64,000 nucleotides of DNA, taken from positions 236,530,001 through 236,594,000 of the forward strand of contig OZ024742.1 of assembly GCA_964016885.1 (NCBI GenBank), written 5' to 3'. Shown here in pieces: positions 18,856 through 46,066 of the stretch (position 1 is its first letter; every line of letters begins with the position of its first letter). The translations under genes were made by a program, and so were the position numbers. The notes beneath the pieces were generated by a model. It was not told where the DNA came from, did no database searches, and worked only from the letters and a program-made list of their open reading frames with translations. This DNA is from Eledone cirrhosa (lineage: Eukaryota).

Positions 18856-19090
18856 ATGTTTTTCCAAATTGAAGGATAAGTATTTTAGACTTTATTTTAT
18901 CATGAGTTAAGGCTCTATTGATTCTTCCCTGGATTTCACTAAATTCTGTGGATGAATTTATATCCTGATTCTCTTTTAAGATGAGTTTGAATTATTTTTC
19001 CTACATTTTCCCATGTTGACGACATAGTCGCATATATGTTATGGAATACTGTTAGCTTCTCGCTAAAACAATTTCTATACCTTTCATTTA
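18856..19090 (+). mobile_element. Diverged 3' fragment of the 631-bp HHR repeat family at 44.5-45.8 kb, inserted in (TA)n
   Basis: Reverse complement aligns with 44501-44751 and begins just downstream of the predicted ribozyme cleavage site and stem I. Confidence 0.8.
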
Positions 19091-19110
19091 TATATATACA
19101 CATATATATG

Positions 19111-42895: not shown

Positions 42896-43589
42896 CATAT
42901 ATATATACATATATATATATACATATATATATATACATATATATATACATAAGTTTTAATATAGATGAGATTCTACAGGACTAGAACTGTTTCATTCTTT
43001 AGAAATCATCAAGAATCTGGGTATCAAAAAATAAATATGGTATTTATAGGTCTCTACAAGTGGTAGGAGAGGGTGGGGAGTGGGATGGGTGTAGGTCATT
43101 GGTTAATAGAAAAGGAATTCATTAAAAGCTAATTCTACAAAGCTATAGTTTATTTTTATTAATTTTTGTTTTTAGTAACAAAGGCAGACAGAATTCAATT
43201 CTAGAAACAGGTTCCGGATGGCATACCATTCCTTGTCATTAAGTTTCTCTTAAGCTAACATATGTCTATAAGATCAGTGGGGGGTCAGTCATGGTAGATA
43301 GAATTAAAGGAAAGGGAGTTTCTTTAAAAGCTAAATTCATTAAGGTTCTACCAAGTTACAAAGGTTTAGAGAATTCTGTAGACAGATTCAAAATACTGAG
43401 TGCATATCTTACAATTATCTTCGAACTTCTCTTAAACTAATCAACTATATGCCAAAAATCAACAGACACATTCACAAAAAAACACACTCACTCACACACT
43501 CGCGCGCAACCATAAACACATATACACATACACATATACACACATAAAAACACACACACATATATAAATATATTTATATATATATATAT

Positions 43590-43631
<42 letters not shown>

Positions 43632-43637
43632 ATACAT

Positions 43638-43676
<39 letters not shown>

Positions 43677-43767
43677 CACATATATATACACTCACACACA
43701 TACATACATACACACAAATATACATGTGTATACAAATACATACATATACACATACATATATATATAT

Positions 43768-43805
<38 letters not shown>

Positions 43806-43860
43806 CATACATATACACACATACATATATATATATACATATACACACACATACACACAA

Positions 43861-43893
<33 letters not shown>

Positions 43894-44277
43894 CATAAAC
43901 AAATATATACATACACACACACAAACACATACACATACATATATATACACACACACACACACACACATATACACATATATAAGAAAAAAGCACCCTACAT
44001 ACACATATATACATATACATACATACATATACACACACATATATACACACACACACATAAACACATATATACACACAGACACACACACACATACACATGC
44101 ATATATATAAATATATATAAATATATCTATATATATACATATATACACATACATACACAGACATATACATAAATATACACATATATACAAACATATATAC
44201 GCATATATACACACATATATATACATATATATACACGCATACACACACAAATATATATACACACACTCTCTCTCACG

Positions 44278-44345
<68 letters not shown>

Positions 44346-44756
44346 CACACCTGCACACACACACATATATATATATACACACACATACACACACATATAT
44401 ATATATATACATACATATACATATATACATACATACACATACATACACATATATACACACATATATATATATATACACATATATATACATATATACATAT
44501 ATAAATGAGAGGTATAGAGATTGTTTTAGCAAGAAGCTAACGGCATTCTATAACATATATGCGACTATAACGTCAAGATGGGAAAAGTAGTTAACGAAAG
44601 ATTTAGGAAAAATAACTCAAACTCATCTCAAAAGAGAATCAGGATATAAATTCATCCACATAATTTAGTAAAATCCAGGGAAAAATCTATAGACCTTTAA
44701 CTCATGATAAAATAAAGTTTGAAACACTTATCCTTCAATTTGGAATAACATCAAAT

Positions 44757-44837
44757 GCTCTGTATAGTCTTAAAAGACTATTTCATGAAAACTTTCAGTG
44801 GAGATGGTCACGGTTGGATTTCATTCATCAGCAGAGC
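44757..44837 (-). ncRNA. Type-I hammerhead candidate
   Basis: gctctg CTGATGA atgaaa...tttcat GAA ATAGTC-ttttaa-GACTAT A cagagc; three 6-bp helices, AUA triplet. Confidence 0.85.
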
Positions 44838-45387
44838 TCAACAGAAAACCAGGGCTCTCACAGTAATATAATCCGAAAAAGGCAATTCTAAAACTGGCTA
44901 GTTCGCCTTCATGTGTATTTATGAAAAAGCACATGAGGAAAAAACGGGGCTAGTGACGTCATGATGGAAGTGAATGTTTATTTACAAGAAATAGCAGTCA
45001 AATACATTCTGAAAAAAAACTCTACAAAAGGAGTTCAGCAAAATAGCAATAATTATCACAGTTTTTATGAAAAAAACCGGGATTAGTCACAGATAGTTTA
45101 AGCACTCTAGGAAAAGAATCCGAGTATAAATATAAATGAGAGGTATAGAGATTGTTTTAGCAAGAAGCTAACGGCATTCTATAACATATATGCGACTATA
45201 ACGTCAAGATGGGAAAAGTAGTTAACGAAAGATTTAGGAAAAATAACTCAAACTCATCTCAAAAGAGAATCAGGATATAAATTCATCCACAGAATTTAGT
45301 AAAATCCAGGGAAAAATCTATAGACCTATTACTCATGATAAAATAAAGTTTGAAACACTTATCCTTCAATTTGGAATAACATCAAAT

Positions 45388-45468
45388 GCTCTGTATAGTC
45401 TTAAAAGACTATTTCATGAAAACTTTCAGTGGAGATGGTCACGGTTGGATTTCATTCATCAGCAGAGC
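45388..45468 (-). ncRNA. Type-I hammerhead candidate, second unit
   Basis: Same sequence as 44757-44837, offset 631 bp. Confidence 0.85.
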
Positions 45469-46066
45469 TCAACAGAAAACCAGGGCTCTCACAGTAATAT
45501 AATCCGAAAAAGGGAATTCTAAAACTGGCTAGTTCGCCTTCATGTGTATTTATAAAAAAGCACATGAGGAAAAAACGGGGCTAGTGACGTCAGGATGGAA
45601 GTGAATGTTTATTTACAAGAAATAGCAGTCAAATACATTCTGAAAAAACTCTCCAAAAGGAGTTCAGCAAAATAGCAATAATTATCACAGTTTTTATGAA
45701 AAAAACCGGGATTAGTCACAGATAGTTTAAGCACTCTAGGAAAAGAATCCGAGTATAAATATAAATGAGAGGTATAGAGATTGTTTTAGCAAATACATAC
45801 ATAAATATACACACATAAAACACATATACACACATAGATATATATATATATATACATACACATACATATACACACATACACACAAATATATACACATACA
45901 AATAAATAAGTACTCAATAAATATACGCATATACGCAGGCACATAAAAACACCTCTACAGGCAGAAAATGTAGATAGGAAAGAGGTACTCACATAACCAT
46001 TAGTGGCCGTATTTCAGGTTGAGGAGGGGGTGGGGGTAGGGTGGGCAGGAGGTATAGGGGCCAACC

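What the first reader, a model, noticed from the sequence alone, without database searches (positions are those of the whole stretch)
44501..45792. 631-bp tandem with one well-formed hammerhead per unit: candidate large retrozyme / circRNA generator
SEEN: 2.05 head-to-tail copies of an ORF-less unit. Each has an identical minus-strand type-I HHR with three 6-bp helices and an AUA site, with cleavage predicted near 44763 and 45394. A diverged copy at 18856-19090 starts just after the ribozyme, as expected for a cDNA of the cleaved RNA. KNOWN: metazoan non-LTR retrozymes are HHR-bearing tandem repeats, typically a few hundred nt, processed to monomers and circles. INFERENCE: a minus-strand transcript would release an exact 631-nt monomer, longer than typical. 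The more-than-unit-length permuted insertion fits reverse transcription around a circular template.
Basis: partly seen in the sequence, partly recalled or inferred. Interest (0 to 1): 0.8.

Follow-up and report, generated by a model that had tools for sequence, protein, structure and literature searches.

The report
Mobile hammerhead-ribozyme repeat (animal retrozyme)
This is one of at least 850 scattered copies of a 630-base non-coding repeat that carries a hammerhead-ribozyme motif and sits in TA microsatellites, and the shape of the copies suggests that a Penelope-type reverse transcriptase likely copies a predicted RNA circle from one fixed start point, which makes a long-proposed but unproven jumping route testable.

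Summary
Confirmed: 2.05 units (631, 629 and 32 nt; 98.6% alike), each full unit with an identical minus-strand type I hammerhead (6/6/6 bp, AUA, cuts after 45394 and 44763). It belongs to a dispersed family: 853 exact end junctions, 755 exact cut-spanning motifs, and two older subfamilies (about 90% and 82% alike). Only core position N7 varies much. 223 of 232 elements start at one fixed site 263 nt downstream of the cut, at (TA)n; the other end is random, with no excess at the cut. First and last passes of one insertion share variants (common 111 of 113; 14 private against 0.07 expected), independent of age. Best reading: a non-LTR retrozyme copied by target-primed reverse transcription around a monomeric circle, likely by the abundant Hydra-type Penelope-like elements. 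No RNA data; no sequence link to a partner found; some arrays grew or shrank locally. The scan noted a similar TA-targeted repeat without ribozyme in another genome. New member of a known kind, with unusually clear insertion footprints.

The parts
44501..45131 (-). Unit 1 (631 nt), young subfamily A; RNA sense is the minus strand
45132..45760 (-). Unit 2 (629 nt), 98.6% identical to unit 1
45761..45792 (-). Partial third pass (unit positions 1-32); variable end, where cDNA synthesis is inferred to have stopped
44496..44505 (-). Fixed end: (TA)n joined to ATAAATGAG; inferred reverse-transcription start, about 5 nt (ATATA) of homology to the target, 263 nt 3' of the cut
44757..44837 (-). Type I hammerhead 1 (stems 6/6/6, AUA); predicted cut between 44763 and 44762
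45388..45468 (-). Type I hammerhead 2, identical; predicted cut between 45394 and 45393
44763..45393 (-). Predicted 631-nt cut-to-cut monomer; circular fold z -3.7 (opposite strand -2.8; 30 shuffles each)
44608..44731 (-). Predicted long G-U-rich rod between cut and start site (second copy 45239-45362); candidate protein-binding element
44513..44552 (-). Predicted terminal hairpin ending 12 nt before the start site (second copy 45144-45183)
44954..44961 (.). TGACGTCA palindrome (CRE-like, label recalled), also in subfamily C; candidate internal promoter element, untested
43530..44500 (.). TA/CA microsatellite target on the fixed-end side; similar DNA resumes at 45793
18856..19091 (+). Truncated copy (unit 1-251, 85%) of older subfamily B, in (TA)n, stops before the ribozyme
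54655..54714 (+). 60-nt copy (unit 1-60, 78%) of subfamily C, in (TA)n

Best explanation
It is a dispersed, non-coding, hammerhead-bearing repeat that sits in TA microsatellites with one fixed end and one random end, and it likely moves as a self-cut, re-ligated 630-nt RNA circle that a Penelope-like (likely Hydra-clade) enzyme would copy from one internal start site, round and round, until it falls off. Steps: (1, inferred) a copy holding two ribozymes, like this one, is transcribed on the minus strand; (2, predicted) the ribozymes cut out a 631-nt monomer; (3, inferred from published retrozymes) a host ligase closes it; (4, inferred) a GIY-YIG/RT protein binds the structured stretch between cut and start site, nicks (TA)n and primes at unit position 1; (5, shown as a footprint) copying runs through the ribozyme and the unit junction without excess stops or scars and ends at random; (6, shown) most insertions are under one unit and hold at most one ribozyme, some exceed one unit, and arrays later expand or contract in place.
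For: Family size: 853 fixed-end junctions, 258 internal junctions, 755 cut-spanning motifs, backward-pattern controls 0. Polarity: 223 of 232 elements start within unit positions 1-15, and 33 of 35 elements picked on the ribozyme alone do so; a longer TA-like site at positions 54-60 gave 0 TA-joined starts. Target: (TA)n at 127 of 138 fixed ends and 102 of 138 variable ends in loci not picked on TA. Read-through: 138 ends over 64,933 nt at risk, none in excess at the cut; 3 of 277 crossing passes have an indel at 259-267. Single template: in 72 arrays (19,182 bp of first/last-pass overlap) common variants are in both passes 111 of 113 times; 14 variants seen in no other of 174 elements are in both passes (chance about 0.07); variants present in all passes track subfamily background (36 of 69 comparisons), patchy ones do not (7 of 129; random 12.8%); 42 haplotypes in 59 arrays. 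Shared private variants do not rise with array age (rho -0.002; 5 in 5,095 bp of difference-free overlaps, 9 in the other 14,087 bp). Ribozyme kept across three subfamilies with N7 free and one U-A to C-G swap in stem II. Three inverted structures (L095, L207, L310) resemble the inverted truncated copies described for PLEs. Partner candidates: a 709-aa ORF with YRDD and CxCX5C, 108,678 first-look candidates, many long open frames among 94 scored; Hydra PLEs carry hammerheads and insert in (TA)n. A PLE enzyme starts internally, downstream of its hammerhead, on nicked AT-rich DNA.
Against: No RNA evidence of any kind. No sequence link to an autonomous element: BLAST of 140 loci and a 38-unit profile over 276 sequences (1.17 Mb) hit only the family, unlike Xenopus, where 24 of 57 families match known elements, mostly PLE ends. 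For the anole PLE, uncleaved RNA was the main substrate and cleavage was not needed. Arrays change in place: a 63-bp deletion is in three units but not the last pass at C26:5.84 Mb; duplicated loci L099/L100 hold 1.87 and 0.87 units; L020, L009, L033 and L097 show patchy sharing. One variant (443C) is patchy in two arrays of one subfamily and occurs nowhere else; with A-run columns unmasked the patchy class rises to 13 of 152, still below random. Covariation is weak: 1 of 88 pairs changes on both sides, and the structure came from the same alignment. The first stem II pair is unpaired in 17 of 24 rows (older subfamilies). Only 1 of 9 predicted Xenopus retrozymes cleaved in vitro. Naiad PLEs also favour (TA)n.
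Confidence: 0.62

Rival explanations
1. Same family and same enzyme, but the template is an uncleaved linear multimer transcribed from young, uniform arrays. The ribozyme trims ends or matters little, and long arrays are kept up by unequal crossover.
For: Uncleaved RNA was the dominant substrate for the anole PLE. Local expansion and contraction are shown here. No scar at the cut is expected. 443C is patchy in two related arrays. The Xenopus preprint favours local amplification of PLE ends.
Against: Full units within one array differ by 0.60% on average, so daughters should inherit unit-to-unit differences; inherited patchiness is at or below the random level. 42 haplotypes in 59 arrays would each need a homogenised source. 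Shared private variants do not depend on age. A 6-bp helix III predicts cleavage as a single motif (inference). I saw no copy of a source's upstream flank, but did not test this genome-wide.
Confidence: 0.24
2. The template is the cut linear monomer, held shut by stem I. The reverse transcriptase jumps from its 5' end to its own 3' end, so no covalent circle is needed.
For: It gives the same single-haplotype passes. Stem I pairs the monomer's two ends in the predicted fold.
Against: No excess stops at the cut and indels in only 3 of 277 crossings; jumps would be expected to leave both (inference).
Confidence: 0.09
3. A DNA-level rolling-circle element (Helitron-like) or a satellite spread through DNA circles; the ribozyme is a passenger.
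For: One fixed end, tandem passes and single haplotypes could also come from DNA rolling-circle copying (recalled).
Against: No TC...CTRR ends (motifs recalled) and no preferred stop at the unit end, where the rate is among the lowest. The ribozyme core is conserved over 18% divergence. Predicted pairs hold better on the ribozyme strand (96.5% against 80.5%; biased, since derived on that strand). PLE-type inversions are present.
Confidence: 0.04
4. An ordinary PLE pseudo-LTR, or a one-off local duplication.
For: PLE ends carry type I hammerheads; 8 of 186 ribozymes had a Hydra-type ORF piece nearby on the same strand (these 8 were not inspected one by one).
Against: Hundreds of dispersed copies. 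Units close on themselves in up to 7.4 passes. Element ends go into (TA)n or unrelated DNA, and 36 of 264 loci hold such ORF pieces anyway.
Confidence: 0.01

Closest known systems
Metazoan non-LTR retrozymes (Cervera and de la Pena 2020, PMC7229834; review PMC7761336)
   Same: Non-coding, low-GC tandem units with one type I hammerhead each, no LTR, PBS or PPT seen, co-occurring PLEs; the circle-and-reverse-transcription model is theirs.
   Different: Unit 630 nt against about 170-400 nt; 6-bp helix III against the usual 1-2 bp; mostly sub-unit insertions with one fixed start in (TA)n. In the parts read they describe no such polarity, and the review says the repeats show no motif that points to the mobiliser. 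Their circles were shown by northern blot; here nothing is.
Vertebrate non-LTR retrozymes as PLE derivatives (Li, Clavereau and Pollet 2026, 10.64898/2026.07.22.740005)
   Same: [quoted passage not shown]
   Different: No homology to a PLE end found here. They suggest local tandem amplification; here first/last-pass sharing points to multi-pass copying at insertion, with local change on top.
Hydra-clade Penelope-like elements (Craig et al. 2021, 10.1101/2021.04.23.441226)
   Same: (TA)n targeting, hammerhead near one end, heavy 5' truncation, partial tandems, inverted copies.
   Different: The repeat has no ORF and no detectable sequence likeness to the Hydra-type elements sampled; it shows one start site, whereas most of the other hammerhead families here show two distances to (TA)n.
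Anole Poseidon PLE mechanism (Frangieh et al. 2024, PMC11167929)
   Same: Internal start of reverse transcription downstream of the hammerhead cut; AT-rich target.
   Different: There the start lies about 85 to 150 nt past the cut, at two sites, without homology, on uncleaved RNA; here 263 nt, one site, about 5 nt of TA homology.
pDo500 satellite of Dolichopoda crickets (PMC2837043; search listing and abstract start only)
   Same: Hammerhead-bearing tandem DNA; unit of roughly 500 bp (recalled from the name).
   Different: Described as satellite DNA; this family is dispersed as short polar insertions.

Membership tests
non-LTR retrozyme | Tandem units, each with a complete type I hammerhead | tested here: met
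non-LTR retrozyme | No protein-coding frame | tested here: met
   longest ATG ORF 41 codons; no tblastn match to the Hydra-type protein (best E 9.5)
non-LTR retrozyme | Multicopy, dispersed, mobile | tested here: met
non-LTR retrozyme | No LTR/PBS/PPT organisation; GC below 50% | tested here: met
   ends and flanks; GC 0.30 for 44001-46000 including flanks; PBS and PPT judged by eye only
non-LTR retrozyme | Self-cleavage in vitro | not testable with these tools
   fold and conservation only
non-LTR retrozyme | Expressed as linear and circular monomer | not testable with these tools
   no RNA holder listed
non-LTR retrozyme | Stable, self-paired monomer fold | tested here: met
   z -3.55 linear, -3.7 circular; 59% of bases paired; the opposite strand also scores -2.8
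non-LTR retrozyme | Target-site duplication | tested here: inconclusive
   both ends lie in (TA)n
PLE-derived non-autonomous element | Sequence homology to a PLE pseudo-LTR | tested here: not met
   on 1.17 Mb of sampled loci only; not a whole-genome test
PLE-derived non-autonomous element | PLE insertion footprint (internal start 3' of the hammerhead, random 5' truncation, inversions, microsatellite target) | tested here: met
Autonomous PLE pseudo-LTR | Contiguous with an RT/GIY-YIG ORF | tested here: not met
Hydra clade (candidate partner, locus L233) | Single ORF under 3 kb, C-terminal nuclease, CxCX5C linker, DKT motif | tested here: met
   709 aa with CNCRNRADC; NKT in this copy, DKT in L131 and L035; atlas neighbours carry HTH_animal, RVT_1, GIY-YIG; motif-based, no tree; Pfam and PDB gave no hit
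Plant LTR retrozyme | Type III hammerhead in LTRs | tested here: not met
   type I topology

The most novel reading that the evidence does not exclude
The family is a genomic record of rolling-circle target-primed reverse transcription: a Hydra-clade Penelope-like enzyme recognises a structured site on a ribozyme-closed 630-nt RNA circle that shares no sequence with its own element, primes at one fixed base from nicked (TA)n and writes up to several identical passes into the chromosome. This would be direct support for the circular-template model of retrozyme and PLE tandem formation, and a natural circle-to-genome writing system.
Probability: 0.45. Interest if true: 0.68.

Novelty: new member of a known kind. 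Interest (0 to 1): 0.5.

Why it matters
Animal retrozyme circles are known, but the papers read here present their return to the genome as a hypothesis (PMC7229834, PMC7761336, PMC4209133), and a 2026 preprint leans to local amplification. This family is young and numerous enough to read the mechanism from its copies: one start site, a defined target, scar-free read-through of the ribozyme and one haplotype per insertion. It names a template, a target and a candidate enzyme with intact copies in the same genome, so an in vitro test is straightforward. If the template is linear, it is still a clear case of a hammerhead SINE-like passenger of Penelope-like elements.

Tried and rejected
Rfam: no hammerhead at gathering score in the window, or at E<=5 in 44400-45900. 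Tandem Repeats Finder cannot see the 631 period (limit 500). Sequencing runs: no RNA holder listed; four of six runs of unrecorded kind, laid as contigs, cover the unit but show no strand, level or joints, so they are no evidence either way. Related ribozyme families hinted by loose ends were not found in this genome (21 and 2 matches; the 21 were read and are family members, the 2 were only covered by the profile scan). Second start site near unit position 59: 0 matches. Pile-up of ends at the cut: none. L099/L100 as a flank transduction: they are a 99.9% duplication over 3.4 kb. 423A in L033 and 197A/199T in L191 as inherited variants: alignment artefacts of indels. Pol III promoter: no A or B box by my patterns, and seven U-runs on the RNA strand; the bacterial promoter scan was at chance level and is irrelevant. 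The hammerhead-like motif of the Hydra-type element has a CAGAAGA core and did not fold as a hammerhead in the lowest-energy structure, so it is a lead only. Pfam hit 1 of 7 PLE-like peptides (GIY-YIG, below cutoff); PDB none. Literature searches listed no paper on this family or on fixed-start, single-haplotype footprints in animal retrozymes; most subscription papers and the bioRxiv supplements were not visible, and I opened no PMC supplements. Earlier scan notes: none by sequence or in this genome.

Full report
Observation. Window 44501-45792 holds a 631-nt unit, a 629-nt unit 98.6% identical to it and 32 nt of a third, between TA/CA microsatellites. The minus strand of each full unit has the same type I hammerhead at 44757-44837 and 45388-45468, with three 6-bp helices, the core CUGAUGA...GAAA and an AUA triplet; predicted cuts are 44763|44762 and 45394|45393, giving a 631-nt monomer. 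Rfam misses it. The dimer has no ATG ORF over 41 codons. The monomer folds better than shuffles (z -3.55 linear, on a stretch shifted by one base; z -3.7 circular against -2.8 for the opposite strand).

Family. The genome is 3.0 Gb in 1,796 contigs; I take it to be an animal, perhaps a cephalopod, from recalled size and repeat content, and did not test this. Exact patterns give 853 junctions of (TA)n with the unit start, 258 internal unit junctions and 755 motifs spanning the cut; backward controls gave 0. The copy at 18856-19091 belongs to an older subfamily B (about 90% to A) and the 60-nt piece at 54655-54714 to subfamily C (82%, 638-nt unit, 335 exact matches of a 30-mer). All three have the same layout. 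Across 239-277 passes the 12 fixed core bases carry 0.5% minor alleles against 2.9% overall, and N7 is U, C or G, as expected for a hammerhead under selection. In 24 aligned copies 95.3% of cells pair in an 88-pair model, against 34-46% when partners are slid, but only one pair changes on both sides, the first stem II pair is unpaired in 17 rows, and the model came from the same alignment. Structure support is therefore modest outside the core.

Polarity. Of 232 distinct elements recovered, 223 begin within unit positions 1-15 (221 within 1-5). Many loci were picked on that end, so the fair test is the 35 elements picked on the ribozyme alone: 33 start there. Of the nine exceptions, three are the inverted arms of L095, L207 and L310, one borders an N gap, and five were not examined further. 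A longer TA-like site at positions 54-60 gave no TA-joined start. In loci not picked on TA, (TA)n borders 127 of 138 fixed ends and 102 of 138 variable ends. Of 92 elements taken from the first 100 of the 853 listed places, 17 exceed one unit. The longest array fetched has 7.4 passes. On the ribozyme strand the fixed end lies 263 nt downstream of the cut, the side where reverse transcription must begin.

The cut site is not a barrier. In 144 subfamily-A elements there are 138 ends over 64,933 nt at risk (2.1 per kb). Positions 255-270 have 1 end against 3.9 expected, and 245-275 have 7 against 7.5. Ends recur at TA-like spots such as 28, 32, 60, 69 and 434. Of 277 passes that cross the cut, 3 have an indel and 22 a substitution at 259-267. 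So the 18856-19091 copy is an ordinary truncation, and the template was either re-ligated or uncut.

Circle or linear multimer. A circle predicts one haplotype in all passes; a read-through transcript predicts inherited differences between passes, since full units within an array differ by 0.60% on average (1.50% between arrays). I compared first and last passes in 72 arrays (19,182 bp), leaving out elements under 92.5% identity, L100 (duplicate), L054 (interrupted), overlaps under 50 bp, CpG sites and A/T-run columns. Common variants were in both passes 111 of 113 times. Fourteen variants seen in no other of 174 elements were in both passes, against about 0.07 by chance, and 71 were in one. 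All-pass variants matched subfamily background in 36 of 69 comparisons, patchy ones in 7 of 129 (random 12.8%; 13 of 152 with run columns unmasked). There were 42 haplotypes in 59 arrays. Shared private variants did not rise with age, which argues against later gene conversion. Against this: arrays do change in place. A 63-bp deletion lies in three units but not the last pass at C26:5.84 Mb, duplicated loci L099/L100 hold 1.87 and 0.87 units, and several arrays show neighbour-only sharing. One variant, 443C, is patchy in two related arrays and found nowhere else. 'Private' is relative to a sample of 174, so uniform young source arrays remain possible. The window's own two units differ only by changes that look post-insertion.

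Partner. The loci are full of Penelope-like ORFs. One family has a 709-aa frame with YRDD and a CxCX5C linker, 108,678 first-look candidates and many long open frames among 94 scored; its atlas neighbours carry HTH_animal, RVT_1 and GIY-YIG, though Pfam and PDB gave nothing. These motifs match the Hydra clade, which carries hammerheads and inserts in (TA)n. Several other hammerhead families lie at fixed distances from (TA)n. No sequence link between the unit and any of them was found in 1.17 Mb, so the partner is a guess from target and footprint; Naiads also favour (TA)n. The candidate recognition element is the predicted rod at unit 108-231 plus the hairpin at 13-52.

Literature seen. 10.64898/2026.07.22.740005: parts 1-3 of 5, main text through the discussion, supplements closed. 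PMC7229834: parts 2-4 of 6, results and discussion. PMC11167929: parts 1-3 of 4, whole main text. 10.1101/2021.04.23.441226: passages and the Hydra section. PMC4209133 and PMC7761336: passages. PMC13282606: passages, no mention of hammerhead, ribozyme or retrozyme in the main text. PMC2837043: listing only. These establish retrozyme circles in coral, mussel and axolotl, unit lengths of 51-972 bp, the proposal that PLEs copy circles into more-than-unit cDNA, and internal initiation on uncleaved RNA for one PLE in vitro. Seven searches listed no report of this family or of this footprint analysis; unseen supplements could hold either. One earlier scan note describes a TA-targeted Penelope-type tandem repeat with a tRNA in another genome (unchecked).

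Verdict. A new member of the non-LTR retrozymes by every feature testable here; cleavage, expression and circle are untested (no RNA holder listed). It works like a non-autonomous Penelope-like element but fails the homology test for descent from one in the DNA sampled. Monomeric circle 0.62, uncleaved multimer 0.24, end-to-end jumping on a cut monomer 0.09, other 0.05. Interest 0.5.

Noticed in passing
window:58765-58830: A minimal type I hammerhead (plus strand, palindromic short helix III) of a different, abundant family, about 130 nt upstream of a (TA)n border; typical of PLE ends.
   Followed up: partly
loci L001-L275: At least seven further hammerhead-like families lie next to (TA)n, most with two preferred distances 60-100 nt apart, like the PLE 'tail' from two start sites. 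Their bodies were not reconstructed.
   Followed up: partly
L124:1827-3179 and L233:1495-3624: The Hydra-type PLE has an intron after the ORF: 15 copies keep the GT donor, one (L124) is spliced and joins the ORF's 3' side to 5' leader sequence. Its hammerhead-like motif has a CAGAAGA core.
   Followed up: partly
window:55569-55650: tRNA-like sequence (Rfam RF00005, 48 bits, minus strand) in microsatellite DNA; probably the head of a tRNA-derived SINE.
   Followed up: no
window:11168-15025: Broken LINE on the minus strand: a 476-codon frame with a CCHC knuckle followed by endonuclease and RT pieces, Tx1-like by recalled motifs.
   Followed up: no
window:45950-46200 and 54999-55190: Two fragments of another TA-bordered repeat whose relatives carry a CUGAAGA hammerhead-like motif.
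   Followed up: no
L097 (G000:C1:203.70 Mb): A 4.7-unit array with alternating haplotypes (units 1 and 3 alike, 2 and 4 alike): a two-unit block duplication, or possibly a dimeric template.
   Followed up: partly
L207 (G000:C3:229.40 Mb): An inversion whose second arm begins at unit position 327, where the first arm ends (326), as twin priming would give.
   Followed up: partly
unit positions 345-359, about 438-457 and 568-585: Three imperfect copies of an A-run/CCGGG/TAGTCAC-like motif, one overlapping TGACGTCA; possible promoter elements.
   Followed up: no
runs X1, X5, X6 on window:44773-44810: Contigs in three coded organisms share stem III and part of loop II of this hammerhead but differ on both sides, hinting at related families elsewhere; not found in this genome.
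   Followed up: partly
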